Origin: Mobula hypostoma
Taxonomy: Eukaryota
NCBI RefSeq assembly: GCF_963921235.1
Contig: NC_086097.1
Location: 13,392,001 to 13,456,000 of the forward strand
Length of the DNA stretch: 64,000 nt
Direction of reading: 5' to 3'
Below are positions 2,821 through 62,182 of this stretch, piece by piece (positions within the stretch are counted from its first letter, which is position 1; each line of letters opens with the position of its first letter). Under the pieces are notes generated by a model. The model made no database searches. It was not told the origin of the DNA and saw nothing but the letters and a program-made list of their open reading frames with translations. The translations under genes were made by a program, and so were the position numbers.

Positions 2821-3092
2821 AACACGAGGAAATCTGAAGATGCTGGAATTTCAAGCAACACACATAAAAGTTGCTGGTGAACGCAGCAGGCCAGGCAGCA
2901 TCTCTAGGAAGAGGTATAGACGATGTTTCAGGCTGAGACCCTTCATCAGGACTAACTGAAAAAAGAGATAGTAAGAGATTTGGAAGTTGGGGGGGGAGAT
3001 CCGAAAAGATGGGAGAAGACAGGAGGGGGAGGAATGGAGGCTAAGAGCTGGAAAGTTGATTGGCAAAAGGGATACAAGGCTGGAGAAGGAGA
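2821..3092 (-). mobile_element. PLE 3' tail fragment with degenerate hammerhead
   Basis: Closely similar to 33212-33440. Hammerhead core at about 2917-2955. Confidence 0.8.
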
Positions 3093-5662: not shown

Positions 5663-6521
5663 CACTGTCCCCTCTAAGCTCATGGCTGCACAGCGGCGCA
5701 GTAACTGCATTGCTCCCATGCACATAGCCTTTGCTGCCATGCAGCTGAAAATATTTTTCAGTCAGAAATCAGTCCTGATGAAGGGTCTCAGCTTGGAACA
5801 TTGACTGTTTATTCCCATACATAGATGCTGCCTGGCCTGCTGAGCTCCTCCAGCACTTTATGTGTATCACTCTAGATTTCCAGCATCTGCAATACCGTTT
5901 GTGTCCATGGAATTTCCTTTCATACAAGATGAAAGCGTTTACCTCAAAAATATCACAGCAATACTATGATTTCAAATTTATCATTTCTGAGAAAGTTAAA
6001 ACTGGTTCAACTAAGACGTTTTCTGATATGTTGAACTACGTGCTTAGAAATTAAGAATTCGAAGAACTGTCAATTCTTGTTGACATTGTTGGAATATTTC
6101 AAGTTTCTAGTGCTGACTGTGAACATGGATTCAGTCTTTTGAATTCAATCAAATGTAAATCGAGAAACAGACCAGAAGTGGAACATTTTGTTGATCTAAT
6201 GAGGATTAAGATGCATCTTTCACCTGGAGGTGAAATTATTCTGGACAGTGCTTATAGACAATGGATTTGTAATAAAGAAAGCTGAAAAAAAGTTTACAAA
6301 ATGTGGAAGGTTTTTTTGCTGTACTGTATTTCATTATACCCTACAATTAATAAATAAAATCAAAAGTATATGATTTTTCAATATTCATTCTAAATATTCA
6401 TAATATGCATATTACAAAAATAACATTTAAAGTGCCACGTATTTTTCAGTTGGTGAAAGTATTTCCTGCTCAGAACAATGGTTGATCCATGCAACTGTAC
6501 AAATAATTAGAGGGATCACTG
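5663..6521 (+). mobile_element. Non-autonomous hAT transposon
   Basis: TIRs CACTGTCCCCTCTAA and TTAGAGGGATCACTG. 8-bp TSD GTGAGGAT/GTGAAGAT. Internal hAT dimerisation-domain remnant VSSADCEHGFSLLNSIKCKSRNR at about 6100-6172. Confidence 0.85.
5769..5905 (+). mobile_element. PLE-derived short repeat nested in the hAT element
   Basis: CAGTCCTGATGAAGGGTCTCAGCTTGGAACATTGACTG followed by ATAGATGCTGCCTGGCCTGCTGAG...TTCCAGCATCTGCA. Confidence 0.75.
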
Positions 6522-6574: not shown

Positions 6575-7760
6575 GTAGTTGCACAGATTGATAGAGTGTA
6601 GATGAAGGTGTATGGTAAGCTGGCCTTTATTAGTTGAGGTGTTGAGTTCAAGAGTCAGGGAGTTATGTTACAGCTTTATAAAACTCCATTCAGGCTGCAT
6701 TCTTCAACACCCTTTAACATCTGCTGGACGATACTGAGGATGTTCTACGAGTCTGTGGTGGCCAGTGCGATCATATTTGCTGTTGTGTGCTGGGGCAGCA
6801 GGCTGAGGGTAGCAGACACCAACAGAATCAACAAACTCATTCGTAAGGCCAGTGATGTTGTGGGGATGGAACTGGACTCTCTGACGGTGGTGTCTGAAAA
6901 GAGGATGCTGTCCAAGTTGCATGCCATCTTGGACAATGTCTCCCATCCACTACATAATGTACTGGGTGGGCACAGGAGTACATTCAGCCAGAGACTCATT
7001 CCACCGAGACGCAACACAGAGCATCATAGGAAGTCATTCCTGCCTGTGGCCATCAAACTTTACAACTCCTCCCTTGGAGGGTCAGACACCCTGAGCCAAT
7101 AGGCTGGTCCTGGACTTATTTCCTGGCACAATTTACATATTACTATTTAACTATTTATGGTTTTATTACTATTTAATTATTCATGGTTCAACTGTAATGA
7201 AAACCAATTTCCCCCGGGATCAATAAAGTATGACTATGACTATGATTCAGTTCTGGTCACCCCATTATAGGAAGTTGTGGAGGCTTTGAAGAGGATGCAG
7301 AAGAGCTTTAGCAGTTTGCTGCCTAGATTAGAGGGCAGGTGCTCTATGGGGAGTTTAGGTAAACTTAGATTATATTCTCTGGAATGGTAGAAGCTGAGGG
7401 AGACCTGACAGAACTCTATATACTATGAGAGACACAGAGTGCTAGTATCTTTTTTCCCAGGGTCAAAATGTATAAAATTAGAGGGTGAGAGAGGGCAAGT
7501 TCAAAGGTGATGTGCAGGGCAAGTTTATCATCCAGTCACTGGTGGGTGCCTGGAATGCACTGTCTTGGATGGTAGTGGAGGCTAATATGAGAGAGATGTT
7601 TAAGAGACTCTTAGATAGGTGTGGAGAATAGAAAGTTATGATTATAATGTAGGAAGAAGGGATTAGTTTAATTAGTTAGATATTTAAATACTAGCTTCAT
7701 TAATTGAGCATAATATCATGGTCCAAAGGGCCTGTTTCTTTACTGCACGGTACTATGTCT
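6575..7760 (+). mobile_element. CR1 LINE 3' fragment interrupted by Rex1
   Basis: IEFKSQGVMLQLYK-like sequence before 6700 continues with QFWSPHYRK after 7245 and ends in a CR1 3' UTR. Confidence 0.7.
6710..7245 (+). mobile_element. Rex1-type LINE, 5'-truncated young copy
   Basis: Near-identical to 19978-20527. AATAAA followed by a (TATGAC)n tail. Confidence 0.9.
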
Positions 7761-8157: not shown

Positions 8158-8480
8158 TCAACACACAAAATGCTGGAGGAACTCAGCAGATCAGACAGCG
8201 TCTATGAAAATGAATAAACAGTCAATATTTTGGGCTGTAACCCTTCATCAGGACTGGAAAGGAAGGGGGAAGATTTGGAAGAAAAAGGTTGTGGGGTAGA
8301 GAGGGAAAGGAGGATGAGCATTAAGGTGATAAGTCAAGTCAGGTGGGTAGAGAAGATAAAGGACTGGAAAAGAAGGCATCTAATAGGAGAAGAGAATGGA
8401 CCATGGGAGTAAGGGAAGAAGGAGAGGCACCGGGAGGGAGGGGGGGTGATAGGCAGGTGAGGAGAAAAGGTAAGAGGCCA
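8158..8480 (-). mobile_element. Older PLE-derived tail repeat
   Basis: ACACACAAAATGCTGGAGGAACTCAGCAG...CCCTTCATCAGGACTG followed by a purine-rich tract. Decayed hammerhead at about 8219-8256. Confidence 0.7.
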
Positions 8481-9384: not shown

Positions 9385-11065
9385 TGTGCTCGGTTGGGTG
9401 TTGTGCAATGATCCGGAGATGATAAGAGAGCTTAAGGTTAAGGTACCCTTAGGGAACAGTGATCACAATATGAACAAGTTCACATTGAAATTTGAGAGGG
9501 AAGAAATAAAATCCAATATGTTGGTATTTCAGTGGAATAGATGAAATTACAATGAAATGAGAGGGGAACGAACTGAAGCAGGCTGGAAAGGGACATTTTC
9601 AGGAAAGAAAGCAAAGCAGCAATGGCTGGAGTTTCTGTGAAAACTGAAGGAAGTGCAACTCAGATATATTCCAAATAAGAAGAAATTTTTCACAGGGAAG
9701 AAGGACATTACCATGGCTGACAAGTGAAGTCAGAGATAAGTAAAAGCAAAAGAGAGGGCATACAAGGAAGCCAAAGCTAGTGGGAAGATAGAGGATTGGG
9801 GAGCTTTTAAAAACTTGGAGAAGGAAACTAAGAAGGTAATTTCGAAGGAAAAGATGAATTATGAGAGGAAGCTGGCGACTAATATCAAAGAAGATACGAA
9901 AAGCTTTTTTAAGTATATAAAGGGTAAAAGAGAGTCGAGGGTAGACATAGGACCAATACAAAATGACGCTGGAGATATTGTAATGAGCAATGCAGAGATG
10001 ACAGAGGTATTTTGCATCTGTTTTCACAGTGGAAGACGTTTGCAGTATACTGGACATTCAGGGGTGTCAGGGAAGTGAAGTTTGTGCAGTGAAAATTACG
10101 ACTGAGAAGGTGCTCTGAAAGTTTAATGGTCTGAGGGTGGATAAATCTCCTGGACCTGATGGAATGCACCCTCAAGCTCTGAAGGAATTAGCTGGAGAGA
10201 TTGCGGAGGCATTAACGATGATCTTTCAAGAATCGATAGATTCTGGCATTGTACCGGATGATTGGAAAATTGCAAATGTTACTCCGCTACATAATGAGGC
10301 AGCAGAAGGGAGACTAAAGACCTGTTAGCCTGACATCAGTAAGTTGTTGGAATCGATGGTTAGGAATGAAAATACGGAGTACCTGGAGACACATGAGAAG
10401 ATAGGCCAAAGTCAGCATGGTTTCCTGAAAGGAAAACCCTGCTTAACAAACCTACTACAATTCTTTGAGGAGATTACAAGCAGGGTAGACAAAGGAGATG
10501 TAGTAGACGTGGTGTACTTGGATTTTCAGAAGGCCTTTGACAAGGTGCCGCACTTGAGGCTGCTTAGCAAGATAAGAGCCCATGAAATGGCAGGGAAGTT
10601 ACTAGTGTGGTTGGAGCATTGGCTGGTCGGCAGAAAACAGAGAGTGGGAATAAAGGGATCCTATTCTGGCTGGCTGCTGGTTACCAGTGGAGTTCCACAG
10701 GGGTTGGAGTTGGGACCACTGCTTGTTACAATGCATGTCAATGATTTGGACTATGGGATTAATGGATTGTGGCTAAATTTTCCAATGATACAAAGATAGG
10801 TGGAGAGGACTTATTTAGATGGGGAGAAAATTTAAAATGCAGAGATGCAAAGGGACTTGGGAGTCCTTGTACAGGATACCCTAAAGGTTAATCTCCAGGT
10901 TGAGTCAGTGGTGAAGAAGGCGAATGTAATATTGGCATTCATTTCTAGAGGTAAGAATATAAGAGCAGGGATGTGAAGTCGAGGCTGTATATGGCACTTG
11001 TGAGAACACACTTGGAGTATTGTGTGCAGTTTTGGGCTCCTTATTTTAGAAAGGATATACTGAAA
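9385..11065 (+). pseudogene. CR1 ORF2 fragment (endonuclease end, linker, RT N-terminal half), disrupted
   Basis: KSPGPDGMHP, SQHGFLKGKPCLTNLL, VYLDFQKAFDKVPH and SGVPQG, with stops, frameshifts and an internal deletion near 10810. Confidence 0.9.
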
Positions 11066-12624: not shown

Positions 12625-12960
12625 CACACAACTCAACAGGTCAGAGAGCATCTACAGAGGGGAATAAACAGTCAAAGTTTTGGGCTGAGACCCTCTATCA
12701 GAAATGGACAGGAAAGGGGGCATAAGTCAGAATTTAAAAGGTAGAGGGAGGAGGAGGAGTGCAAGATGGCAGGTGACAGGTGAATATCACCAGCTGGGGA
12801 ACCATGACAGAGGGTCTCAAAGAACTCCTATCGAAGGGAGGTGGAACATTTCCTCAAGATGGGTCTGTTCAGCATGTCACGCAGCATCTATGGAGGGGAA
12901 TATACAGGCGATGTTTCGGGCCAAGACCTTTCATCAAGGCTGAAAAGGAAGGGGACAGAA
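12625..12960 (-). mobile_element. Two decayed PLE-derived tail repeats
   Basis: Hammerhead-like remnants at about 12669-12705 and 12905-12942 with the usual flanking motifs. Confidence 0.6.
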
Positions 12961-19074: not shown

Positions 19075-20578
19075 AAGGCAGAAAAAATCTGCAGATGCTG
19101 GAAATCCAAGCAACACACACAAAATGCTGAGAAAATCAGCAGGCTAATCAATGCCTCATCCCTGTGCTGAAGACGCCGCGCCCCAGCGGCCTCAATGACT
19201 ACAGACCGGTGGCATTGACCTCCCACATCATGAAGACACTGGAGAGACTTGTTCTGGAGCTGCTCCGGCCTATGGTCAGGCCACACTTAGATCCCCTCCA
19301 GTTTGCCTACCAGCCCCGACTAGGAGTTGAGGATACCATTGTCTACCTGCTGAACCGTGTCTACGCCCACCTGGACAAGCCAGCGAGCACTGTGAGGGTC
19401 ATGTTTTTTGACTTCTCCAGTGCGTTCCACACCATCCACCCTGCTCTGCTGGGCGAGAAGCTGACAGCGATGCAGGGGTCATGGGTTCTTGATTACCTGA
19501 CTGGCAGACCACAGTACATGTGCTTGCAACACTGTGTGTCCGACAGAGTGATCAGCAGCACTGGGGCTCCACAGGGGACTGTCTTATCTCCCTTTCTCTT
19601 CACCATTTACACCTCGGACTTCAACTACTGCACAGAGTCTTGTCATCTTCAGAAGTTTTCTGATGACTCTGCCATAGCTGGATGCATCAGCAAGGGAGAT
19701 GAGGCTGAGTACAGGGCTACGGTAGGAAACTTTGTCACATGGTGTGAGCAGAATTATCTGCAGCTTAATGTGAAAAAGACTAAGGAGCTGGTGATAGACC
19801 TGAGGAGAGCTAAGGTACTGGTGACCCCTGTTTCCATCCAGGGGGTCAGGGTGGATATGGTGGAGGATTACAAATACCTGGGGATACGAATTGACAATAA
19901 ACTGGACTGGTCAAAGAACACCGAGGTTGTCTACAAGAAGGGTCAGAGCCGTCTCTATTTCCTGAGGAGACCGAGGTCCTTTAACATCTGCCGGACGATG
20001 CTGAAGATGTTCTACGAGTCTGTGGTGGCCAGTGCTATCATGTTTGCTGTTGTGTGCTGGGGCAGCAGGCTGAGGGTAGCAGACACCAACAGAATCAACA
20101 AACTCATCCGTAAGGCCAGTGATGTTGTAGGGATGGAACTGGACTCTCTGACGGTGGTGTCTGAAAAGAGGATGCTGTCCAAGTTGCATGCCATCTTGGA
20201 CAATGTCTCCCATCCACTACATAATGTGCTGGGTGGGCACAGGAGTACATTCAGCCAGAGGCTCATTCCACCGAGATGCAGCACAGAGCGTCATAGGAAG
20301 CCATTCCTGCCTGTGGCCATCAAACTTTACAACTCCTCCCTTGGAGGGTCAGACACCCTGAGCCAATAGGCTGGTCCTGGACTTATTTCATAATTTACTG
20401 GCATAATTTGCATATTACTATTTAACTATTTATGGTTTTATTACTATTTATTATTTATGGTGTAACTGTAACGAAAACCAATTTCCCCTGGGATCAATAA
20501 AGTATGACTATGACTATGACTATGACTAGGAAAAGAGTAAACTGTCGACGCTTCGGGCCGAGACCTTTCATCGGGACT
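19075..20578 (-). mobile_element. PLE-derived tail repeat split by Rex1 insertion (halves about 19075-19146 and 20528-20578)
   Basis: AATCTGCAGATGCTGGAAATC...CAGCAGGCTA on the left; GTCGACGCTTCGGGCCGAGACCTTTCATCGGGACT on the right. Confidence 0.75.
19147..20527 (+). mobile_element. Rex1-type LINE, 5'-truncated, open RT frame 19164-20369
   Basis: NDYRPVALTS, QFAY, FFDFSSAF, GAPQGTVLSPFLF, KFSDD and YKYLG. AATAAA followed by (TATGAC)4. Confidence 0.95.
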
Positions 20579-21904: not shown

Positions 21905-22451
21905 ATACACATTATTAGATCCACTTGTACACCTGCTCGTTAATGCAAATATTTAATCAGCCAATCATGTGGCAGGAACACAATGCATCAGGACATACAG
22001 ACATGGTCAAGAAGTTCAGCTGTTGTTCAGACCAAACATCAGAATGGGGAAGAAATGTGATCTAAGTTACTTTGACCGTGGAATGATTGTTGGTGCCAGA
22101 TGGGGTGGTTTGAGTGTCACAGAAACTGCTGATCTCCTGGGATTTACACACACAGCACTTTCTGGGTGCAAAAAGAAAAAGAAAATCTAGTGAACTGTAG
22201 TTCTGTTGGTGAAAATGCCATGTTAATGAGAGAGGTCAGAGGGGAATGGACAGACTGGTTTAAGCTGACAGGAAGGCGACAATAACTCAAATAACCATAC
22301 ATACAACAGTGGTGTGCAGATGAGCATCTCTGAACTCACAGCACATCGAACTTTGAAGTGGATGGCTACAGCAACAGCAGAGCATGAACGTACACTCAGT
22401 GGCTATTTTATTAGGTACAGGAGGTACCAAATAAAGTGGCGATTGAGTGTA
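21905..22451 (+). mobile_element. Tc1-like deletion derivative
   Basis: MGKKCDLSYFDRGMIVGARWGGLSVTETADLLGF is a Tc1 N-terminal HTH. Ends in a TIR hairpin at 22391-22451. Confidence 0.8.
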
Positions 22452-23332
22452 GATTTGTCTGGAAGTGATGTGAGTGGAACAGAAACAGTACCTGTCACTA
22501 ATGCCAAAGAAAGCCTCCCAAAAGGAATTCGTGACCTCTGTGGTAAGATGTATTTCTCCGAGACGAGCTCCTACTATCCATTGGGTTCTCCAGAGTTCTA
22601 TAACTGTGATAGCTTCAAACTACATGAGCAACCACTTCCTTTGCAGAATCCCTGCAGAAAATATAGTAGGAAACAGAATTTGTTACTAATAAAAGCGCTA
22701 AAAATAAATTCAAAACCTATGATTAAAGTAGAAGCTTAAACATTTAAAAATGTGTCAAATCCTTCACACATTGAAATATTCATGCGAGGAAATTACAATT
22801 AGATTTTTAGTACCAGATAGTTTTCTAAGTAGCAATTACAACTTTTTATGTCATTAGGAGCTCACAGAACTCATGAAACAAGGACTAAGATTTTCAGATA
22901 TTTAACGGCGAAGCTAGTTATTCAACATCTTAAATTTGCACCCTTGCTAGTGAGTACTGGAGTGAAAGTCATGGACACACAATTAGAGTCTGTTTTAGGT
23001 TTTAGTGATTTCCACAAAAAGCTGTAAGGTTACAATGAATATGATTGTCCTCCTGTAAATACTTCACTCAGTCACTGTTGAAGAACCCCCCCTCAAGTTA
23101 TCTCAGCAATGGTAAAATCATGCACATGCCAAAGTCTTGGGTGTTTATCTATAGCGATGTTCTCACTTGGTTCACATCCCCAATATAGTACGACTCGTTG
23201 AGACGAAGCTTTGGGTTCCATGAAACTTTGGCAGAGCAAGCTGAAGGTTGTTAGTATGTTCAGCTAATTTGGTGTACAGTCCCCTTGTTGATTGTAAAGG
23301 AGTTTTTAGTCACAATTTCTAAAGAACAAGTT

Positions 23333-31913: not shown

Positions 31914-32156
31914 AGTGGCCTGTCCAGCTCTTGGCTCCATCTCTCCCCCTCCTGTCTTCTCCTATCATTTTGGATCTCCCCTCCCCCTCCCACTTTCAAA
32001 TCTCTTACTAACTCTTCCTTCAGTTAGTCCTGACGAAGGGTCTTGACCTGAAACATCGACTGTACCTCTTCCTAAAGATTCTACCTGGCCTGCTGCACTC
32101 ACCAGCAACTTTGATGTGCGCTGCTTGAATTTCCAGCATCTGCAGAATTCCTTTTG
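31914..32156 (+). mobile_element. PLE 3' tail fragment
   Basis: Matches 45775-46013. Hammerhead core at about 32025-32062 reads GAAACATC. Confidence 0.85.
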
Positions 32157-33211
32157 TATACGATCAGAAGTCAGTCTCAGATGTCTATTCAAGATTGAGG
32201 GGTAGTTAGTCGGTTTACAGTGGGAGGATTTGTGAAATGGCAACTATGTCAGGAGTTTGGAACTGGGAATCAGGACGGTTTCAGAACTAGGGATTCTACT
32301 GGGAGCCAGAGACTGGGACTTCATGCACTCTCTAAATTGGGAGGAAAACAGAAATGTGGATCAGAGTTTGTAATGGTGATTGGTTCAATTCATTTTCTGG
32401 CCTGGACTCAAGGGCAAGCAGTGAGAGCAATCTCTCATAGGAGTCCATTTTACCATAGGGTTAATAAACCATGGTCATTCCAGTCTGAGAACAGCCCATC
32501 TATTAAGAGTCGCTCTCAGAACAATTCTCTGTCCGATATTCCAAAAGGAATATTACACGTGAAGTGACATCATCAAAGTGAGTGTGAAAGAGAACCTGTC
32601 AAACTACTGGTGAAATGATAAATGTTTAACAAAAATATCTCAATTGCCATTTTGTTGCTCACAATTTAAATTTGGATCCAGTTGTGCAGAAAAATAGAAC
32701 AAAACCAATCTAATTTCTAAACTTTAGTCCAAAAAATAAAGATTAGGTTCTCCACATACATTCACAAATGATCATGAACAGCCCCTTGAAGAATAGATCA
32801 TAAGGAATAAATCATGAAGGGCCTTGAGCTTATTCTGCCACTCAGTGTGACTATGGACATCATAATCTTGGCTTCAAACTTCCTGCCCTTTCCCCTTGAT
32901 TTTTGATTCAAAGATCTATCCATCCCTACCCTGGACATATTCAGTGAAGCTGATTCTACCACACATCCACCCCTGAAGCAAAATCCTCTACTCATTAAGC
33001 AAGGTTATAGAATTAAAGAACACTGCAGAATAGAAACAGGACCTTTGGCCCATCTAATTAGTGCCAAACTATTATTCTACCAGCTCTCATTAACCTGCAT
33101 CTGGACCTTAGCCCTCCATAAATCTTCCATCCAGGTACTATCCAAACATCTACTAAATGTTTGAATAAAATCTACATCTACCACTCCCACTGGCAACTTG
33201 TTCCATACTCA

Positions 33212-34360
33212 AGCAACACACATCAAAGTTGCTGGTGAACGCAGCAGGCCAGGCAGCATCTCTAGGAAGAGGTACAGTCGACGTTTCAGGCCGAGGCCCT
33301 TCGTCAGGACTAACTGAAGGAAGGGTTAGTAAGAGATTTGAAAGTGGGAGGGGGAGGGGGAGATCCAAAATAATAGGAGAAGACAGGAGGGGGAGGGATG
33401 GAGCCAAGAGCTGGACAGGTGATTGGCAAAAGGGATATGAGAGGATCATGGGACAGGAAGTCCGGGAAGAAAGACGGGGGGGGGGGGGAACCAGAGGATG
33501 GGCAAGGGGTATAGTCAGAGGGACAGAGGGAGAAAAAGGAGAGTGAGAGAAAGAATGTGTGTATAAAAATAAATAACAGATGGGGTACGAGGGGGAGGTG
33601 GGGCATTAGCAGAAGTTAGAGAAGTCGATGTTCATGCCACCAGGTTGGAGGCTACCCAGACGGAATATAAGGTGTTGTTCCTCCAACCTGAGTGTGGCTT
33701 CATCTTTACAGTAGAGGAGGCCGTGGATAGACATGTCAGAATGGGAATGGGATGTGGAATTAAAATGTGTGGCCACTGGGAGATACTGCTTTCTCTGGCG
33801 GACAGAGCGTAGGTGTTCAGCAAAGCGGTCTCCCAGTCTGCGTCGGGTCTTGCCAATATATAGAAGCCCACATCGGGAGCACCGGACGCAGTATATCACC
33901 CCAGCCGACTCACAGGTGAAGTTTCGCCTCACCTGGAAGGACTGTTTGGGGCCCTGAATGGTGGTAAGGGAGGAAGTGTAAGGGCATGTGTAGCACTTGT
34001 TCCACTTACAAAGATAAGTGCCAGGAGGGAGATCAGTGGGGAGGGATGGGGGGGACGAATGGACAAGGGAGTTGTGTAGGGAGCGATCCCTGCAGAAAGC
34101 AGAGAGAGGTGGGGAGGGAAAGATGTGCTTAGTGGTGGGATCCCGTTGGAGGTGGCGGAAGTTACAGAGAATAATATGTTGGACCCGGAGGCTGGTGGAG
34201 TGGTAGGTGAGGACCAGGGGAACCCTATTCCTAGTGGGGTGGCGGGAGGATGGAGTGAGAGCAGATGTACGTGAAATGGGGGAGATGTGTTTGAGAGCAG
34301 AGTTGATAGTGGAGGAAGGGAAGCCCCTTTCTTTAAAAAAGGAGGACATCTCCCTCATCC
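33212..34360 (-). mobile_element. 5'-truncated Penelope-like element, GIY-YIG ORF 33606-about 34355
   Basis: C..KCYTC linker, VIYCVRCSRCGLLYIGKT..R..EH..HF..E..N GIY-YIG motifs, hammerhead in the 3' region, and short TSD TACTCA at 33206-33211 and 34361-34366. Confidence 0.92.
33275..33312 (-). ncRNA. Minimal type I hammerhead ribozyme
   Basis: Minus strand: TAGTC CTGACGA AGG-GCCTCGG-CCT GAAA C GTC GACTG. Confidence 0.8.
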
Positions 34361-34719
34361 TACTCACACCACCTCTGAGTGAAGAAATTCCCCCTTATGT
34401 CTCCTTAAACATTTCACCTTTCACCCGTAACCTATGAAGTCTTGTTCTAGTATCACTTAGCCTCAGTGAAAGAAGCCAGCTTGCATTTACCCACCAGTAC
34501 ATATTAGGCTCCTGTACATCTATGAGTAATCCTGTACTCAATACTTCGATTTATAGAGGTCAATGTGCCAGAATCTCTCTTTATGACTCTGTCTACCTGT
34601 AATGCCAATTAGGTTTACATTAATTTGGTAAGTAAATGGAAACTTGGGGCCTAAATATGAAGAGAGAATAGTTAAACTAGAAATAAAACATGTTTCAGGT
34701 GAGCTGGTGTTTATAAAAG

Positions 34720-42665: not shown

Positions 42666-42820
42666 ATTACTGTAATATTTAGTAATTTGCACCATTAGAG
42701 TAACACTTTGTGCTTGGGTTATAAAAATGCTGTTTACATATGATGGACAGTGTCATTCTTCCAGTTCTCATGCACAGATAGTGGCCAATTTGCAGAGAAT
42801 GTAACATAAGTTCTATAATA

Positions 42821-42886
42821 CAGTACTGTGCAAAAGTCTTAGGCACATGTATATAGCTGGGGTGCCTGAGACGTTGCAGAGTACTG
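42821..42886. mobile_element. Tc1-type mini-MITE
   Basis: TA-flanked inverted repeats CAGTACTGTGCAAAAGTCTTAGGCAC...GTGCCTGAGACGTTGCAGAGTACTG. Confidence 0.75.
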
Positions 42887-43159
42887 TATTTGTCAATGCA
42901 AAATGGACAGTGAGTTTGGAAATTGGTGGGAGCAAAGGATGTTGGGAATGACAAAGGTGGAATGCCGGGGGAAGAGTGTGGGACAGGTGGCAGAGAAAGA
43001 TAACCAGGGACGGGGTGGCATGGGTAAATTGAACTGAATTAAATAGGATTAGCCTGTCTCCATTCCTCCTGTGCTCCACAACCTGCACTTTTGTTCTTGC
43101 CACTTTGAGGGAGAGGGTGTTTTCTTGACACCACTGTGTCAGGATGATGACTTCTGGAT

Positions 43160-44493
43160 AGCATACGGCACATCTGGATAGCAGAAACAGGATCGGTCGA
43201 AGTCAACATGGATTTACGAAGGGGAAGTCGTGCTTGGCTTATCTTCTGGAATTTTTTGAGGATGTAACTATGAAAATGGACAAGGGGGAGCCAGTGGATG
43301 TAGAGTACCTGGACTTTCAGAAAGCCTTTGATAAAGTCCCACATAGGAGATTAGTGGGCAAAATTAGGGCACACGGTATTGGGGGCAGAGTACTGACATG
43401 GATTGAAAATTGGCTGGCTGACAGAAAACAAAGAGGAGCGATTAACGGGTCTCTTTCGGAATGGCAGGCGGTGACCAGTGGGGTACCGCAGGGTTCAGTG
43501 CTAGGACCGCAGCTGTTTACAATATATATTAATGACTTAGATGAGGAAATTAAAAGTAACGTTAGCAAATTTGCCGATGACATAAAGCTGGGTGGCAGTG
43601 TGAAATGTGCGGAGGATGTTATGAGAATGCAGGGTGACTTGGACAGGCTGGGTGAGTGGGCAGATGCATGGCAGATGCAGTTTAATGTGGATAAATGTGA
43701 GGTTATCCACTTTGGTGGTAAGAACAGGAAGGCAGATTATTATCTAAATGGAGTCAAGTTAGGAAAAGGGGAAGCACAACGAGATCTAAGTGTTCTTGTA
43801 CATCAGTCACTGAAAGCAAGCATGCAAGTACAGCAGGCTATGAAGAAAGCTAATGGCATGCTGGCCTTCATAACAAGGGGAATTGAGTACAAGAGCAAAG
43901 AGGTCCTTCTGCAGCTGTACAGGGCCCTGGTGAGACCACACCTGGAATACTGTGTGCAGTTTTGGTCTCCAAATTTGAGGAAGGACATTCTTGCTATTGA
44001 GTGAGTGCAGCATAGGTTCACAAGGTTAACTCCTGGGATGGCGGGACTGTCATATGTCAAAAGATTGGAGCAACTGGGCTTGTATACTCTGGAAATTAGG
44101 AGGCTGAGAGGGATCTTATTGAAACATATAAGATTATTAAGGGATTGGACATGCTGGAGGCAGGAAGCATGTTCCCGCTGATGGGTGAGTCCAGAACCAG
44201 AGGCCACAGTTTAAGAATAAGAGATAGGCCATTTAGAACGGAGTTGAGGAAAAACTTTTTCACCCAGAGAGTGGTGGATGTGTGGAATGCTCTGCCCCAG
44301 AAGGCTGTGGAGGCCAAGTCTCTGGATGCTTTCAAGAAAGAGATGGATAGAGCTCTTAAAGATAGCGGAATCAAAGGTTATGGGGATAAGGCAGGAACTG
44401 GATACTGATTGTGGATGATCAGCCATGATCACAGTGAATGGTGGTGCTGGTTCGAAGGGCCGAATGGTCTACTCCTGCACCTATTGTCTATTG
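43160..44493 (+). mobile_element. CR1 LINE, young 5'-truncated copy (RT frame 43234-44004)
   Basis: YLDFQKAFDKVPH, SGVPQGSVLGPQLF, KFADD and WQMQFNVDKC. Premature stop at 44004; (CTATTGT)n tail. Confidence 0.95.
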
Positions 44494-44927
44494 TTCTCTC
44501 TGTAGGCTGTATCGCTATTATTTGATATTAGGCCAATCAGTGTAGTATCATCAGCAAATTTAATTAGCACACTGGCACCGTGGCAACACAGTTATGGCTG
44601 TACAGCAAGTAAAGGAGGGGGCTTACGACACAGCCCTGAGGGGCACCTCTGTTGAGGTCTCAGACACACACAGCCCCTGAGACACAAAGCAGTGTCATTT
44701 GATTCCAAACAATTGGTTTATTACAGAATGTCTCTTTGTTGCTTCCAGTTCCCTCCTGTCTCCATTCCCCTTTTTCCCAACCATGATTCCCCTCTCCCTG
44801 CCTCCTTCCTACTCACAGTCTAAAATAGAGAGGCATATCAGAATCAGGATTACCATCATTCATATGAAACTCACATCAAAGTTGCTGGTGAACGCAGCAG
44901 GCCAAGCAGCATCTATAGGAAGAGGCG

Positions 44928-44965
44928 CAGTCGACGTTTCAGGCCGAGACCCTTCGTCAGGACTA
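44928..44965 (-). ncRNA. Minimal type I hammerhead ribozyme
   Basis: Minus strand: TAGTC CTGACGA AGG-GTCTCGG-CCT GAAA C GTC GACTG. Confidence 0.8.
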
Positions 44966-45880
44966 ACTGAAGGAAGAGTGAGTAAGGGATTTGAAAGCTG
45001 GAGGGGGAGAGCCAAAATGATAGGAGAAGACAGGAGGGGGAGGGATGGAGCCGAGAGCTGGACAGGTGATAGGCAGAAGGGGATACGAGAGGATCATGGG
45101 ACAGGAGGTCCGGGAAGAAAGACGGGGGGGGGGGTGACCCAGAGGATGGGCAAGAGGTATATTCAGAGGGACAGAGGGAGAAAAAGGAGAGTGAGAGAAA
45201 GAATGTGTGCATAAAAAAGAGTAACAGATGGGGTACGAGGGGGAGGTGAGGCCTAGCAGAAGTTAGAGAAGTCAATGTTCATGCCATCAGGTTGGAGGCT
45301 ACCCATACGGAATATAAGGTGTTGTTCCTCCAACCTGAGTGTGGTTTCATCTTTACAGTAGAGGAGGCCGTGGATAGACATGTCAGAATGGGAATGGGAT
45401 GTGGAGTTAAAATGTGTGGCCACTGGGAGATCCTGCTTTCTCTGGCGGACAGAGCGTAGATGTTCAGCGAAGCGGTCTCCCAGTCTGCGTCGGGTCTCAC
45501 CAATATATAAAAGGCCACATCGGGAGCACCGGACGCAGTATATCACCCCAGTCGACTCACAGGTGAAGTGATGCCTCACCTGGAAGGACTGTTTGGGGCC
45601 CTGAATGGTGGTAAGGGAGGAAGTGTAAGGGCATGTGTAGCACTTGTTCCGCTTACACGGATAAGTACCAGGAGGGAGATCAGTGGGGAGGGATGGGGGG
45701 GACGAATGGACAAGGGAGTTGTGTAGGGAGGGATCCTGTCCCATGATCCTCTCGTATCCCCTTCTGCCTATCACCTGTCCAGCTCTCGGCTCCATCCCTC
45801 CCCCTCCTGTCTTCTCCTATCATTTTGCATCTCCCCCTCCCCCTCCAGCTTTCAAATCCCTTACTCACTCTTCCTTCAGT

Positions 45881-45918
45881 TAGTCCTGACGAAGGGTCTC
45901 GGCCTGAAACGTCGACTG
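45881..45918 (+). ncRNA. Minimal type I hammerhead ribozyme
   Basis: TAGTC CTGACGA AGG-GTCTCGG-CCT GAAA C GTC GACTG. Predicted cleavage after C45913. Confidence 0.8.
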
Positions 45919-46077
45919 CGCCTCTTCCTATAGATGCTGCCTGGCCTGCTGCGTTCACCAGCAACTTTGATGTGTGTTGCTTGAATTTCCAGCATCTGCA
46001 GAATTCCTGTTGTATTCATATGAAACTTGTTTTTTTGCAGCTGTAGCAGCAGTACAGTGCAATACATAAAATTACTA

Positions 46078-48529: not shown

Positions 48530-48657
48530 AACACAAGAGATTCTGTAGATGCTGGAAATCTTCAACAACACACAAAAAAAGCTAGAGCAAATCAGAGAGC
48601 ATTTATGGAGGGGAATAAACAGTCGACGTTTTAGGCTGAGACCTTTTATCAGGGCTT
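48530..48657 (-). mobile_element. PLE-derived tail repeat
   Basis: ACACAAGAGATTCTGTAGATGCTGG...CAGTCGACGTTTTAGGCTGAGACCTTTTATCAGG. Confidence 0.7.
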
Positions 48658-49184: not shown

Positions 49185-49487
49185 ATAAGACTACAAGACG
49201 TAGGAGCAGAATTAGGCTATTTGGCCCGTCAAGTCTGTTCTGCCATCTGTCATGGTTGATTTATTTTCGTTCCCAAACCCTCACTCCCCATAATCTTCGA
49301 TGTCCTGGCTAATCAAGAACTATCACCCTCTGCTTTGAATATATCCAGTGATTTGGCCTCCACAGTTGTCTGTGGCAATGAATTCCACAGATTCACTACC
49401 CTCTGGCTGAGAAAAAAATCCTCCTCATTTCTGTTCTATAGGGACATCCTTGTATTCTGAGGCTGTGTCCTTTGGTTGTAGACTCAA
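49185..49487 (-). mobile_element. CR1 3' end
   Basis: Reverse-complement match to 27625-27900. Confidence 0.75.
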
Positions 49488-50350
49488 CACTGTGTAAACT
49501 ATGAAGGTGGTACTGTGGGAGTTAGGAAGGTTGTACTGTATAGATTATGAAGATTGTACTGTGCGGATTATGACCCTTGTACTGTGTGGAATATGAAGGT
49601 TGTACTGTGTGGAGTATGAAAGTTGTACTGTGTGGATTATGAAGGTTGTACTGTGTAGATTATGAAGGTTGGACTCTGAATTATAAAGGTTGTGCTCTGT
49701 GGATTATGAAGGCTGTACTGTGTGGATTATAAAGGTTGGAATGTGTGGATTATGAAGGTTGTACTGTGTGGATTTTGAAGGCTGTACTGTGTGGAATATG
49801 AAGGTTGTACTTTGTGGATTATGAAGGCTGTACTGTGAAGGTTGGACTCTGTGGATTATGAAGGTTGTACTGTGTAGATTATGAAGATTGGACTGTGTGG
49901 ATTATAAAGGTTGTACTGTGTAGATTATGAAATTGTACTGTGTGGATTTTGAAGGCTGTACTGTGAAGCTTGGACTCTGTGGATTATGAATGTTGAACTA
50001 CATGGATTATGAAGGTTGTACTGTGTAGATTATGAAGGTTGGACTCTGTGGATTATGAAGGTTGTACTCTGTAGATTATGAAGGTTGTACTGTGTGGATT
50101 ACGAAGGTTGTATTGTGTGGATTATGAAGATTATACTGTGTGGATTATAAAGGTTGTACTATGTGGATTTTGAAGGCTGTACTGTGTAGATTATGAAGGC
50201 TGTACTGTGAAGGTTTGACTCTGTGGATTATGAAGGTTGTACTGTGTACATTATGAAGGTTGGACTGTGTGGATTATGAAGGTTGGACTCTAGATTATGA
50301 AGGTTTTACTGTATGGATTATGGAGCTTCTATTTTGTGGATTATGGATAT
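49488..50350. repeat. 23-bp minisatellite
   Basis: Consensus CTGTGTGGATTATGAAGGTTGTA, roughly 35-40 copies, decaying at the right edge. Confidence 0.95.
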
Positions 50351-51084
50351 TGTACTGCATGAATCATGGATCTTGTACTGTTTGGTTTTCTGATGTTGAA
50401 TTTTTCAATTTATGGAGATTGTTCTGCATGGCTTACAAAAGCTATACTGTGTACTTCATAGAGGTTAGACAGGTTTGTTTATAGAAATAATACTATAATT
50501 TATGGACACTATACTGTGTGGTTTATTGAAGCTGTACTATTCTGTTAATATTGGAACTACTGTTTAATTTAGGAGCTTGCACCAAATATTTGATGGAGAT
50601 TGTATATCGCTGTTTATAGAGGTTGTGATATGTACTGTAGGTTCTGAAGGGTGTGGACTATGGATTTTATTCTCTGTTTTACATAGTTTGCACTGTTTAA
50701 TTGTTTGGGTGTTTGTACAGTTCAACTGATTGTTTGTACTTTGCCTTCCATGAAGATATGAGCATATTTATCAAGAACGCTGCATATGCAGGGCTCTTAG
50801 CATTGTCAATGATCCCTCCTATCAGTCCAACAATCTCTTTGACCCCTATCCTCAGACAGGAGGTACCATAGCATTAGAACAAGGACCATTAGAATGGAAA
50901 ACGGTATTTTCCTCAAGGATGTGCAGCTCCTGTACTTCCTGCCACCACCCAGGTCTCATCACGTACAGTATAAAGCGCCAATAGAGTTAACAACAGGAAT
51001 TCTGCAGATGCTGGAAATTCAAGCAACACACATCAAAGTTGCTGGTGAACGCAGCAGGCCGAGCAGCATCTATAGGAAGAGGCG

Positions 51085-51122
51085 CAGTCAACGTTTCAGG
51101 CCGAGACCCTTCGTCAGGACTA
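51085..51122 (-). ncRNA. Minimal hammerhead ribozyme (GUU cleavage triplet variant)
   Basis: Minus strand: TAGTC CTGACGA AGGGTCTCGGCCT GAAA C GTT GACTG. Confidence 0.7.
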
Positions 51123-52341
51123 ACTGAAGGAAGAGTGAGTAAGGGATTTGAAAGCTGGAGGGGGAGGGGGAGATGCAAAATGATAGGAGAAGACAGGAGG
51201 GGGAGGGATAAAGCCGAGAGCTGGACAGGTGATAGGCAAAAGGGGATACGAGAGGATCATGGGACAGGATGTCCGGGAAGAAAGACCGGGGGGGGTGACC
51301 CAGAGGATGGGCAAGAGGTATATTCAGAGGGACAGAGGGAGAAAAAGGAGAGTGAGAGAAAGAATGTGTGCATAAAAATGAGTAACAGATGGGGTACGAG
51401 GGGGAGGTGGGGCCTTAGCGGAAGTTAGAGAAGTCAATGTTCATGCCATCAGGTTGGAGGCTACCCAGACGGAATATAAGGTGTTGTTCCTCCAACCTGA
51501 GTGTGGCTTCATCTTTACAGTAGAGGAGGCCGTGGATAGACATATCAGAATGGGAATGGGATGTGGAATTAAAATGTGTGGCCACTGGGAGATCCTGCTT
51601 TCTCTGGCGGACAGAGCGTAGGTGTTCAGCAAAGCGGTCTCCCAGTCTGCGTCGGGTCTCGCCAATATATAGAAGGCCACATCGGGAGAACCGGACGCAG
51701 TATATCACCCCAGCCGACTCACAGGTGAAGTGTTGCCTCACCTGGAAGGACTGTTTGGGGCCCTGAATGGTGGTAAGGGAGGAAGTGTAAGGGCATGTGT
51801 AGCACTTGTTCTGCTTACACGGATAAGTGCCAGGAGAGAGATCAGTGGGGAGGGATGGGGGGGACGAATGGACAAGGGAGTTGTGTAGGGAGCGATCCCT
51901 GCAGAAAGCAGAGAGGGGGGGGAGGGAAAGATGTGCTTAGTGGTGGGATCCCGTTGGAGGTGGCGGAAGTTACGGAGAATAATATGTTGGACCCGGAGGC
52001 TGGTGGGGTCGTAGGTGAGGACCAGTTGTGAGAACATTTCAATGATAGGCCCCACCTCCCCCTCGTACCCCATCTGTTACTCATTTTTATGCACACATTC
52101 TTTCTCTCACTCTCCTTTTTCTCCCTCTGTCCCTCTGAATATACCTCTTGCCCATCCTCTGGGTCACCCCCCCCCCCCGTCTTTCTTCCCGGACCTCCTG
52201 TCCCATGATCCTCTAGTATCCCTTTTGCCAATCACCTGTCCAGCTCTCGGCTCTATCCCTCCCCCTCCTGTCTTCTCCTATCATTTTGCATCTCCCCCTC
52301 TCCCTCCAGCTTTCAAATCCCTTACTCACTCTTCCTTCAGT

Positions 52342-52379
52342 TAGTCCTGACGAAGGGTCTCGGCCTGAAACGTCGACTG
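52342..52379 (+). ncRNA. Minimal type I hammerhead ribozyme
   Basis: Identical to 45881-45918. Confidence 0.8.
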
Positions 52380-52797
52380 CGCCTCTTCCTATAGATGCTG
52401 CTTGGCCTGCTGCGTTCACCAGCAACTTTGATGTGTGTTGCCAATAGAGTTAGACTATTTACTCTTTAACTTGTGTCATACATGCATCCTAAATATCAAT
52501 CCTATGGAATATGTTTTATTCTTTGTTAAATTATTTGTGGTAATATTACTTTAGGTGTTGTGCGTGTGTTGTGCACCTCGGACAGGTTTGGCGGTATGGT
52601 AGGTTTACTGGTCATTGTAAATGGTCTGGTGATTAGACGAGGGGTGAATTGAGGGTTGCCAGCTGCCGTGGCTGGAAGGACTGCAAAGACCTATTTCATG
52701 CTGTATCACAATAAATAAATAAATGAATAAGAATACGACTGAATGGCATTAAACTTCAGTGGTTTAATGGTTCAATTTAATATCAGAGAAGGTATAT

Positions 52798-55204: not shown

Positions 55205-55672
55205 CCCATAATCAGGTTGGAGGAGGCGCCCGTCATATTCCATCTGGGTAGCCTTCAACCTAATGGCATGAACATTGATTTCTCTAACTTTTGGTAACTG
55301 CCCCACCCCCCCTTCACCACTCACTATTCCTGCTTCCCTCTCTCACCTTATCTCCTTACCTACCCGTCACCACCCTCTGATCCTCCTTGCCCTTCCCTTT
55401 CTTCCCTGTCTTCCATCCTGTCCTATCAGATTCCCCTTTCTCCAGCCCTTTATCTCTTTCATCAATCACCTTCCCAGCACGTTACTTCCCCCCCCCACAT
55501 ATCACCTACCGTCTTGTACTTTTTCCTCCCCTCCCCCACCTACTTACTCTAACTTTTCTCCTTCCTTTTCAGTCCTGATGAAGGGTCTCAGCCCAAATAA
55601 TGACTGTTTACTCTTTTCTATTGATGCTACCTGACCTGCTGAGCTCCTCCAGTATCTTGTGTGTGCTGCTTA
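55205..55672 (+). mobile_element. Older PLE 3' end
   Basis: RLEEAPVIFHLGSLQPNGMNIDFSNF followed by a pyrimidine-rich UTR and a decayed hammerhead at 55570-55607. Confidence 0.8.
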
Positions 55673-57164
55673 AAGAGAATCTATCCACCAGTCTTGGTTG
55701 CTGCTTGAGATTTTGAACATATTTCCCCAGTGCACCAGATTAATCTTTGATAATCTGTTTTATCATTCAACAATGTGAGAAAATAAGGAAGATTTGATTG
55801 TTGGTGTTTGTGGGAGCTCACAATGCACAAATTATGTGAAATGTTACCTAAACCACAGCTGCAATGACACTTCAAAAATACTACATTATTTTAAAGTGCT
55901 TTGGAAAATTATGAAAGGCACTATGGAAATGCAAGATTTTTGTTACGTTGTAATGTGCATGTTATAATGTGCACTTAATAATTGTTGAATTTTGTAATTT
56001 ATATTGGTTGTAGCTGTGCTTTTATTGGAAAGTTTATACAAACAGAATCATTTTTTCACACTGTAGTTGTTTTTACGCAATTCAGAATCAGGCTTAATAT
56101 CATTGGCATATATTGTGGAATTTGCTGTTTTGTGGCAGCAGTGCAAAGTTCAAAGTTCAAAGTACATTTATTATCAGAGTGATGATACTTTACACAACCT
56201 TGAGATTTGTTTCCTTACAGGCAGCCACAAAACAAAGAAACTCAAAAGGACCCATTAAAACAAACAAAGATTCTCAAACACCCATTGTGCAGAGAGAAAA
56301 GAAACTAATTGTGCAAACAATAAAGTAAGCAAATAGCACTGAGAAACAAAGTTTATGGAAGTGAGTTATTTGCAGGCTGTAGCCTCAGTTCAGTGCAGAG
56401 ACATCATGGAACAGAGAGCTGAACACGGGCCCATGCTCGCCTCCATACATGAAAATTGAGAAAATCTAGAAATTGCAATAAGAAGTGTATTTGAAAAAAG
56501 GAAATTTAAATTAAATAAGTAGAAATTAAATTAAATAAGTAAAAAGAGGGGGAAAATTGCTGAGGTGGTGTTCATAGGTTCAGTGTTCATTCAGAAATCT
56601 GATGACAGAGGGGTAGCAGCTGTTCCTGAAATGTTGAGTGTGTGCCTTCAAGCTCCTTTATTGAGAAATATGAAGTTTTGCTGTAAATTGTAACATTTTC
56701 ACTCGCTCTACTACGCAGTCGATGTGCTTATGTTGTGCTGTTTGTGGCTGTACTGTATGGTTTATGAAGGGTGTATTTGTTAGCTCAAAGCTAACTTACT
56801 TTCCAGTATATTATACCTATTTAGAATCATATTTTAGTAATTTTAGTAATTTATGGTAGATGCATTGAACAGTTTGGAGCAGTTAAAGAGCATAACAGCC
56901 ATTGGTGGAACTGAGTAGTCGTCTATTGTTTTTTTTATTGCATGGACAATTATAGTGATTGTAAACTGTAATTATTGTGCTTGATAATTTATGGCAATCA
57001 TGATGGGTATCTTTCATCACTCAATAGGTTTTAATTTATTTATTTTTCAGGACCTGGGCTTTACTAACAATGTCAGTATTTATTACCAATTCCCAGTTGC
57101 TGTCGAGAAAACAGTGATGAGCTGCTTTCTTAAGCCATTGCTGTCCTTCTGGTGAAGGCAAGCC

Positions 57165-59189: not shown

Positions 59190-60455
59190 TATGAGAACAG
59201 AAACAGGCAATTCAGCCGATCAAATCTGTTTCACCATTTGATCGTGGCTGATTTTTTTTTCTTTCAGACCCATTCTCCAGTCTTCTCCCCATAACCTTCA
59301 AACACTCTTCATATGTTAACCCTTTCATTCAGGAATTTTTCTTGCGAACCCCATCCTGCCCCTTTTCCGATGTTGACAAATCCTTTCTTAGATATGGGGT
59401 CCAAAACTGCTTACAGTATTCCAAAAGCAGTCTGACCAATGCCTTATAAAGTCTCAACATTACATCCTTGCTCTTATATTGTAGTCCTCTCAAAATGAAT
59501 GCTAACATTGCATTTGTCTTCCTTACCACTGACTCAACCTACAGATTAACCTTTAGGGAATTCCTGCACTAGGACTCCCAAGTCCTTTTTCATCTCTGAC
59601 TTCTGAATCCACTCCTGTTTAAAAAATAGTCTAAGCCTTTATTTCTTCTAATAAAGTGTATGACCATGCACCTCCCGACACTGTATTACATTTGCCACTT
59701 CTCCTAACCTGTCCAAGTCCTGCAAACTCTCTGCTTCCTCAGCATTACCTGCCCTTCCACCTATTTCCCCATCAATTCTCTCATCCAGATCATTAATATA
59801 TATTTTGAAAAGTAGTGGACTCAACACTGACTTCAGCAGAGTACCTCTAGTCACCGGCAGCCAACCAGAAAAAGCCCCCTTTATTCCCACTCTTTGCCTT
59901 CTACCAGTCAGCCAATTTTTATCCACACTTCCCTGTAATGCCGTCTTACCTTGTTTAGCAGCATCACGTGAAGCACTTTATCAAAGGCATTCTGAAAATC
60001 CAAGTAAACAACATTCACGGACTCACCTTTGTCTATCTTGTCTGTTATTTCTTCAAAGAATTCCAACAGATTTGTCAGGCAAGATTTCCCCTTAGGATTA
60101 CCCCGAAACCTCATCCTTAATAATAGTTTCCAAGTATTGCGAAACCTTGTCATTACTAATAGTTTCCAAGTATTGCAAAACATTGTCCTTAATAATAGAT
60201 TCCAAGCACCCTGAAATTGCATCCTTAATGATAGATTCTGTACCCCAAAATCTTTTCCTTAATAATAGATTTCAAGTACCCCAAAATCTCATTCTTAATA
60301 ATAGATTCCAAGTACCCCAAAATCTCATCCTGACTAATAGATTCCAAGTATCGTGAAACCTCATGCTTAAAAATGTATCTAACATCTTGCCAACCACTGA
60401 AGAAAGGCTAACTGGCCTATAATTTCCTGTCTTTTGCCTCACTCCCTTCTGAAAT
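59190..60455 (-). pseudogene. Degraded CR1 ORF2
   Basis: GNYRPVSLSSVVGKML, KGKSCLTNLLEFFE, VYLDFQNAFDKV and LYKALVR. Confidence 0.85.
60101..60386. repeat. 36-bp minisatellite derived from CR1 ORF2
   Basis: About 8 copies of CCCCAAAATCTCATCCTTAATAATAGATTCCAAGTA. Confidence 0.9.
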
Positions 60456-62059: not shown

Positions 62060-62182
62060 GAGGGGTCTTGGCCTGAGCAATCGACTGTTTATTCATTTCC
62101 ATAGATGCTGCCTGACCTGCTGAGTTCCTCTAGCACTTTGTGTGCGTTGCTCTGGATTTCCAGATTCTGCAGATTTTCTAAT
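62060..62182 (+). mobile_element. PLE-derived tail repeat, decayed
   Basis: GGGGTCTTGGCCTGAGCAATCGACTG...ATAGATGCTGCCTGACCTGCTGAG. Confidence 0.7.

What the first reader, a model, noticed from the sequence alone, without database searches (positions are those of the whole stretch)
45881..45918. Intact minimal hammerhead ribozyme with palindromic helix III in a young PLE family
Seen: TAGTC-CTGACGA-AGG(GTCTCGG)CCT-GAAA-C-GTC-GACTG. This gives stem I AGTC/GACT, the full CUGANGA and GAAA core, stem II AGG/CCT and a GUC cleavage triplet. Helix III is collapsed to the self-complementary ACGT. The motif is intact in five places (33275, 44928, 45881, 51085, 52342). Established: PLE pseudo-LTRs carry minimal type I hammerheads thought to cleave as dimers. 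Inference: this family self-cleaves only when two copies pair through ACGT, for example in tandem transcripts. I do not know whether this family has been characterised.
Basis: partly seen in the sequence, partly recalled or inferred. Interest (0 to 1): 0.7.

Follow-up and report, generated by a model that had tools for sequence, protein, structure and literature searches.

The report
Penelope jumping gene's minimal hammerhead ribozyme
This is one of at least 45,000 copies of a tiny RNA motif of a known self-cutting kind, carried by a young Penelope-type jumping gene; it likely cuts only when two copies pair up, but the copies in this window face opposite ways and are predicted not to be able to, so the finding is ordinary.

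Summary
The motif is real. It is a minimal type I hammerhead in the terminal repeat (pLTR) of a young endonuclease-bearing Penelope-like element with a Neptune/Nematis-type linker. One 34-mer of it has 45,751 exact genomic matches. It fits the published consensus and dimer model (PMC4209133). In 80 related loci, 24 of 25 sense-strand motifs have a self-complementary helix III insert, spelled six ways, so the palindrome is selected. Corrections: stem II is better read as GGGU/GCCU with an extra A. The 51085 copy has GUU. The five places are three insertions, two of them head-to-head inverted pairs predicted to bury the motif in a hairpin. Same-strand pairs occur in full-length elements and short deleted tandems, whose junction has 377 matches against 63,448 tails. 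Inserted copies come from uncut or re-joined RNA: 86 of 100 cross the cut site, 4 begin within 3 nt of it (2.9 expected), and 25 begin at the motif's 5' foot. Cleavage was not tested. The scan found this family before on other DNA of this genome. New member of a known kind.

The parts
45881..45918 (+). Minimal type I hammerhead motif: stem I 45881-45885/45914-45918; CUGACGA 45886-45892; extra A 45893; stem II 45894-45897/45902-45905 with loop 45898-45901; GAAA 45906-45909; predicted cut 45913/45914
45909..45912 (+). Palindromic helix III remnant ACGU (positions 15.1, 15.2, 16.2, 16.1)
   Evidence: sequence; self-complementary insert in 24 of 25 related motifs
45919..46013 (+). pLTR tail, which is also the start of the next element copy; genomic copies end about 65 or about 102 nt after the cut site
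   Evidence: 50 and 50 of 100
45733..46013 (+). Short arm (pLTR) of a head-to-head inverted insertion
44868..45736 (-). Long arm of the same insertion: 5'-truncated element end with 3' UTR and hammerhead
44928..44965 (-). Hammerhead motif, identical to 45881
45256..45816 (-). Open frame holding a GIY-YIG endonuclease remnant
   Evidence: PF01541, E 3e-4, below the curated cut-off
44858..44870 (.). 13-bp target-site duplication, left copy (right copy 46014-46026)
   Evidence: read by eye
50990..52441 (.). Second head-to-head inverted insertion; 13-bp target-site duplication at 50977-50989 and 52440-52452
51085..51122 (-). Hammerhead motif with GUU in place of GUC
52342..52379 (+). Hammerhead motif, identical to 45881
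51418..51936 (-). GIY-YIG endonuclease remnant
   Evidence: E 6e-4, below the curated cut-off
33209..34394 (-). Third, single-armed 5'-truncated insertion; GIY-YIG frame at 33609-34394
   Evidence: E 1e-4, 23 bits against cut-off 22.6
33275..33312 (-). Hammerhead motif with C-G instead of U-G at 10.4/11.4
32025..32062 (+). Older decayed copy (ACAU in helix III)
2917..2954 (-). Older decayed copy

Best explanation
The motif is a minimal type I hammerhead in the terminal repeat of a very abundant young Penelope-like retroelement; it is likely a normally silent ribozyme that would cut only as a strand-swapped dimer, probably with protein help, in the rare source elements that carry two same-strand copies, while the truncated copies in this window are likely dead passengers. 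Shown: the anatomy, the link to an RT plus GIY-YIG element, two same-strand motifs about 3.5 kb apart in full-length elements, palindrome-preserving changes in relatives, and that inserted copies run through the cut site. Predicted: the lone RNA folds into a rod in which G5-G8 pair with C15.2-C17 and hide the core. Inferred: two motifs in one transcript swap stem I strands and form a 4-bp ACGU/ACGU helix III. Inferred: cutting is a minor or late step (releasing a unit from a read-through transcript, possibly followed by re-joining) and is not needed for each insertion.
For: Six of 20 fetched loci hold a 1043-codon open frame with ADKGG, YIDD, a CX4CXXC linker and GIY-YIG, and all six have a same-strand motif at each end. 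Related loci: 25 sense-strand motifs in 23 of 80 loci, 0 in reversed and 0 in complemented controls, 3 antisense. With the insert left free (0-8 nt), 24 of 25 are self-complementary (CG 6, TA 9, GC 3, CCGG 4, CGCG 1, TAGCTA 1); the exception is TG. 23 of 25 have the extra base after A9 followed by G10.1. The published consensus is the same (PMC4209133 Fig. S3); there, one S. mansoni motif gave no monomer cleavage and low dimer and trimer cleavage. Rod fold: -11.0 kcal/mol, P(G5-C17) 0.98. Uncut template: of 100 copies chosen by the tail alone, 86 start more than 3 nt upstream of the cut, and 4 start within 3 nt of it against 2.9 expected (p 0.34). In the Anolis Poseidon element the ribozyme is protein-assisted and not needed for insertion in vitro (PMC11167929).
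Against: No cleavage data exist here for this family. Nearest-neighbour energies disfavour the double hammerhead (-11.5) against two rods (-22.0) or an extended duplex (-30.3), though they ignore core tertiary contacts. Within this genome there is no palindrome-preserving subfamily change: 440 double changes at 15.2/16.2, about 79 of the 100 listed being TA (expected from CpG decay), 2 AT and 0 GC, counted by eye. The commonest form has G10.1-U11.1 (68 of 83 copies) instead of the usual G-C, which could weaken it. Fixed subfamily differences number 1 of 38 motif positions against 10 of 71 flank positions (read), only a weak contrast. The relatives share ancestry, so they are not independent.
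Confidence: 0.65

Rival explanations
1. The motif is activated as a monomer by the element's own protein, which melts the rod and holds the core; dimer formation is dispensable in vivo.
For: The Anolis PAc hammerhead cuts only when PAc protein is added, also with endonuclease-dead protein (PMC11167929). Same-strand pairs are rare here: 1 of 18 neighbour pairs within 4 kb among 100 copies is direct with both motifs whole.
Against: A protein-held monomer gives no reason for self-complementary inserts of 2, 4 and 6 nt in 24 of 25 relatives. A15.1-U16.1 cannot be closed by a 2-nt loop (established hammerhead geometry, recalled).
Confidence: 0.15
2. Two cuts release a unit-length RNA that is re-joined into a circle, and every copy is reverse-transcribed from such circles; this would explain why copies run through the cut site and why pLTRs arise.
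For: This is the model proposed in PMC4209133. The 5' and 3' repeats of 14 full-length elements differ less at six diagnostic sites (mean 0.29) than repeats of different elements (0.95). Internally deleted tandems with 2-4 motifs 260-420 nt apart exist.
Against: Like repeats are also expected from a linear tandem source. L035 and L040 differ between their two ends at a diagnostic site. The pile-up of 5' ends at the motif's foot (25 of 100, 5.9 expected) fits a linear RNA end or a stall there better than a circle.
Confidence: 0.12
3. In this family the motif no longer cuts and is kept as a structural or protein-binding signal, or only by descent.
For: No excess of copy ends at the cut site; stable rod fold; G-U at 10.1/11.1 in the commonest form. 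Naiad PLEs proliferate without hammerheads (PMC8557442 passages).
Against: All 11 core positions keep the canonical base as the majority in the young family and in a second family of this genome with different flanks and loop. G10.1-U11.1 also occurs in 2 of 23 related motifs.
Confidence: 0.08

Closest known systems
Minimal hammerheads (min-HHR) in pLTRs of metazoan Penelope-like elements (Cervera and de la Pena 2014, PMC4209133; parts 1-2 of 4 of the text and part 2 of supplement 2 read)
   Same: CUGANGA, extra base, G10.1, GAAA, palindromic 15.2/16.2, NUH, short stem I, pyrimidine-rich 5' flank; found in both pLTRs, in opposite-strand pairs and as many lone truncated copies.
   Different: No cartilaginous fish appears in the Fig. 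S3 rows seen or in the searched supplement text (supplement file 1 could not be searched). The copy number is higher (at least 45,751 exact 34-mers, against about 9,000 motifs in Xenopus and 4,000 in coelacanth). Stem II is 4 bp with G-U at 10.1/11.1 in the commonest form.
Neptune/Nematis-type EN+ PLEs (Craig et al. 2021, PMC8557442; passages read)
   Same: Single ORF with RT, CX2-5CXXC linker and C-terminal GIY-YIG; partial tandems, 5' inverted copies, and a 30-40 bp tail on one end.
   Different: The clade was not resolved between Neptune and Nematis because no named reference sequences were held. The nearest named protein is an uncharacterized Chiloscyllium punctatum sequence, 71% identical over 80% of the query region.
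PAc, Poseidon element of Anolis carolinensis (Frangieh et al. 2024, PMC11167929; parts 1-2 of 4 read)
   Same: Two 3' end positions 30-40 nt apart downstream of the hammerhead (+65 and +102 here); uncut RNA serves as template.
   Different: A different clade. There the ORF starts inside the hammerhead; here the open frame starts downstream of it. Protein-assisted cleavage is shown there and untested here.
Non-LTR retrozymes (bioRxiv 10.64898/2026.07.22.740005; parts 1-2 of 5 and passages read)
   Same: Short direct tandems with a type I hammerhead in each unit, derived from PLE pLTRs; reported in one chondrichthyan with a mean unit of 363 bp. L141 (four motifs, 310-bp unit) fits.
   Different: The window copies are truncated or inverted element ends, not tandem retrozyme units.
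Dimer-cleaving small hammerheads of PLEs (Lunse, Weinberg and Breaker, RNA Biol 14:1499)
   Same: Its title states dimer cleavage of PLE hammerhead variants.
   Different: The paper is not held. It was seen only as a reference and through the review PMC6765202, so whether it covers this family is unknown.

Membership tests
Minimal type I hammerhead (min-HHR) | Core boxes CUGANGA and GAAA with an NUH triplet | tested here: met
   GUC in 4 of 5 named copies, GUU in 1
Minimal type I hammerhead (min-HHR) | Stem II with an extra base between A9 and G10.1 | tested here: met
   P 0.96 for this register; C/U variation at 11.1; same register in 23 of 25 related motifs
Minimal type I hammerhead (min-HHR) | Short open stem I | tested here: met
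   5 bp in the minimum-energy and centroid folds
Minimal type I hammerhead (min-HHR) | Helix III reduced to a palindrome | tested here: met
   ACGU here; 24 of 25 related motifs self-complementary; no compensatory subfamily within this genome
Minimal type I hammerhead (min-HHR) | Self-cleavage at C17, as a dimer | not testable with these tools
   Needs a bench assay; no raw RNA reads were available
Canonical hammerhead families in Rfam | Match to an Rfam hammerhead model | tested here: not met
   0 hammerhead hits among 6 matches at E<=1; the motif lacks a full helix III
EN+ Penelope-like element | Single ORF with PLE RT (DKG motif, catalytic YxDD) and C-terminal GIY-YIG | tested here: met
   Pfam RVT_1 E 3e-5 and GIY-YIG E 1e-3, both below curated cut-offs
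EN+ Penelope-like element | pLTRs, partial tandems, inverted 5' copies and a one-sided tail | tested here: met
Neptune or Nematis clade | CX2-5CXXC zinc-finger-like linker between RT and endonuclease | tested here: met
   CX4CXXC at residues 883-891 of the L034 protein
Neptune clade | Placement within Neptune in an RT tree with named references | not tested
   No named reference PLE sequences were held
Non-LTR retrozyme | Direct tandem units, each with a whole hammerhead | tested here: not met
   Not for the window copies; met by derivatives elsewhere such as L141, L142, L143, L146, L148

The most novel reading that the evidence does not exclude
The hammerhead is a concentration-sensing brake rather than a processing step. 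A cut at the 3' motif would separate the two reverse-transcription start sites (65 and 102 nt downstream) from the coding RNA. The rod-locked monomer therefore lets single RNAs transpose, while pairing between RNAs through the palindrome, driven by transcripts from tens of thousands of passenger copies, would destroy templates when the family is over-expressed.
Probability: 0.1. Interest if true: 0.65.

Novelty: new member of a known kind. Interest (0 to 1): 0.2.

Why it matters
As it stands it adds one more animal lineage (probably a cartilaginous fish, inferred) and a high copy number to a class described in 2014. The role of PLE hammerheads is still open. This family is a convenient test system because it has intact 1043-codon elements with a motif at each end, natural short tandems with 2-4 motifs, and a very large fossil record showing that inserted copies come from RNA that was uncut or re-joined at the ribozyme.

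Tried and rejected
Rfam scan: no hammerhead model matched. RNA evidence: no RNA holder on record was listed. Four contig-only runs of guessed type were laid on L155:2254-4400 and gave no places where molecules begin or end and no clear splice joint among those shown, which is no evidence either way. Viral collection: 52 pattern hits, none confirmed. In-genome covariation at the palindrome: only CpG decay. A structure-based scan of 1.03 Mb of this genome found 88 motifs, 0 in the reversed control, all of one stem II type. Per-position decay within the young family does not test selection on inserted copies: helix III CpG 13 of 170 changed, other motif CpGs 9 of 152, 14 of 172 and 11 of 163. Pairing through ACGU alone was rejected as too weak. 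A splice-acceptor-like stretch before the motif is not conserved in distant relatives (AG within 8 nt in 4 of 17) and was not pursued. The 5'/3' repeat comparison cannot separate circle from tandem templates (L159 is misaligned by an indel and was kept in the count). Literature searches for this family in cartilaginous fish listed no paper describing it; most subscription papers, Repbase and Dfam were not searchable, and the mobulid and shark genome papers listed were not opened.

Full report
Observation. The core pattern occurs 7 times in the window against a shuffle mean of 1.12. All five named places carry the motif. Three are identical, 33275 changes a stem II U-G pair to C-G, and 51085 has GUU for GUC. 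Rfam has no model that detects it. A 34-mer covering the motif has 45,751 exact matches in the 3.48-Gb genome and 0 in the reversed control; a 31-mer of the downstream tail has 63,448.

Anatomy. Folding gives stem I of 5 bp and stem II as GGGU-CUCG-GCCU with an unpaired A after A9. Position 11.1 is U in 68 and C in 15 of 83 genomic copies, which suits pairing with G10.1. The lone RNA is predicted to fold into a rod in which G5-A6-C7-G8 pair with C15.2-G16.2-U16.1-C17 (-11.0 kcal/mol, P 0.98), hiding core and cut site. The folding z-score of the 45881 copy is only -1.24, so the case rests on the motif and its conservation, not on stability.

The element. Frames next to the motifs encode GIY-YIG remnants. 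A search with one of them gave 146 scored genomic matches. Of 20 stretches fetched around those with long open frames, six hold a 1043-codon frame with ADKGG, YIDD, a CX4CXXC linker and GIY-YIG. All six have a same-strand motif at each end, about 3.5 kb apart. This is an endonuclease-bearing Penelope-like element of Neptune/Nematis type as described in PMC8557442 (passages). The nearest named protein is from Chiloscyllium punctatum at 71%, so the host is probably a cartilaginous fish (inference). Full-length copies are 98-99% alike and the window copies 93-98%, so 'young' holds.

Arrangement. The five places are three insertions. 44868-46013 and 50990-52441 are head-to-head inverted insertions, each with a 13-bp target-site duplication. 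A transcript through either holds one sense and one antisense motif, and folding puts 37-38 of the 38 nt into the long hairpin on both strands. Among 100 copies chosen by tail alone, 18 neighbour pairs lie within 4 kb: 11 head-to-head, 2 tail-to-tail and 5 direct, only 1 of the direct pairs having both motifs whole. The junction from pLTR into the ORF, which marks tandem organisation, has 377 exact matches, about 0.6% of the tail count. It is a lower bound, being an exact match to one subfamily. Of 18 such loci taken in order on contig C1 (three already held were skipped), 8 are full-length with both motifs, 3 are short deleted tandems with two motifs, 1 is rearranged with two, and 6 have one linked motif. 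Two more loci picked as tandems (L141, L142) have four and two motifs. So a two-motif transcript is possible, but in a small minority of loci and not in this window.

Is the palindrome selected? Within this genome the test is inconclusive: double changes at 15.2/16.2 are mostly CpG decay, and only one stem II type was found in 1.03 Mb. Across related elements it is clear. In 80 metagenome loci encoding related proteins (the best 80 of 461 confirmed), a descriptor that left the insert free found 25 sense-strand motifs in 23 loci, 3 antisense, and 0 in the reversed and complemented controls. Twenty-four of the 25 inserts are self-complementary, in six spellings, and the remaining one is TG. Grouped by eye these are 17 motif families, which share ancestry. 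This repeats what PMC4209133 reported.

Does it cut? This was not testable, since no raw RNA reads were available. The energy model does not favour the double hammerhead (-11.5 against -22.0 for two rods), and ACGU alone pairs at -1.7, so any dimer needs swapped stems I and probably help. The genomic record shows which RNA was copied. Every one of 100 tail-chosen copies ends 60-80 (50 copies) or 95-110 (50 copies) nt downstream of the cut site. 86 start more than 3 nt upstream of it, and 72 hold the whole motif. Four start within 3 nt of the cut against 2.9 expected, while 25 start 28-41 nt upstream, at the motif's 5' foot, against 5.9 expected. These 100 are the first exact tail matches on contig C1, not a random genome sample, and one was cut by the edge of its locus. 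The templates were therefore uncut or re-joined at the 3' motif. This matches PMC11167929, where the hammerhead of an Anolis Poseidon element is protein-assisted and not needed for insertion in vitro, and where two start sites define the tail. The idea of testing 5' ends came from earlier scan notes, several of which describe this same family; I repeated the test on my own sample.

Mechanism and comparison. Most likely the motif is a silent-as-monomer ribozyme that cuts as a strand-swapped dimer in full-length or tandem source transcripts, probably with protein help, as a minor or late step, and the window copies are passengers (0.65). Rivals are a protein-activated monomer (0.15), obligatory circles (0.12) and a non-cutting relic (0.08). 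It works like, and on every feature testable here belongs to, the minimal hammerheads of metazoan PLE pLTRs. The paper on dimer cleavage by Lunse et al. was not held and was seen only through a review. Searches listed no description of this family. One preprint reports retrozymes in one chondrichthyan; its supplements were not seen and may name the family. File 1 of the PMC4209133 supplements could not be searched.

Verdict. Real, well explained, and a new member of a known kind. Interest 0.2.

Noticed in passing
window 45862-45883 (+): A stretch resembling a 3' splice site (branch-point-like heptamer, pyrimidine tract, two AGs) ends at the motif's 5' foot. Older families of this genome also have a pyrimidine tract and CAG there. 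The Drosophila virilis Penelope intron ends at helix I (PMC4209133). It is not conserved in distant relatives (4 of 17).
   Followed up: partly
L141 (G000:C2:157813000-157822999), also L142, L143, L146, L148: Internally deleted direct tandems with 2-4 whole motifs 260-420 nt apart, resembling non-LTR retrozymes. The deletions leave the ORF 205-277 nt after the cut site. They are natural constructs for a dimer assay.
   Followed up: partly
L092, L094, L018, L099, L106: A second family of this genome has the same core, stems and ACGU but different loop and flanks.
   Followed up: partly
window 5771-5891, 8159-8255, 12870-12951, 48540-48656, 55528-55674, 62060-62179: Older, decayed relatives of the same pLTR (70-78% identity).
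   Followed up: no
window 49428-50330: Tandem array with a 23-nt unit, about 38 copies.
   Followed up: no
window 19131-20369 and 6638-7102 (+); 43162-44004 (+); 10329-10799 (+): Fragments that look like LINE reverse transcriptases of other families, judged by eye from the translations.
   Followed up: no
window 22388-22454 and 42817-42890: Short palindromic hairpins with weak microRNA-model scores far below gathering thresholds; they look like small inverted-repeat elements.
   Followed up: no
window 60063-60406: Degenerate tandem repeat with a 36-nt period.
   Followed up: no
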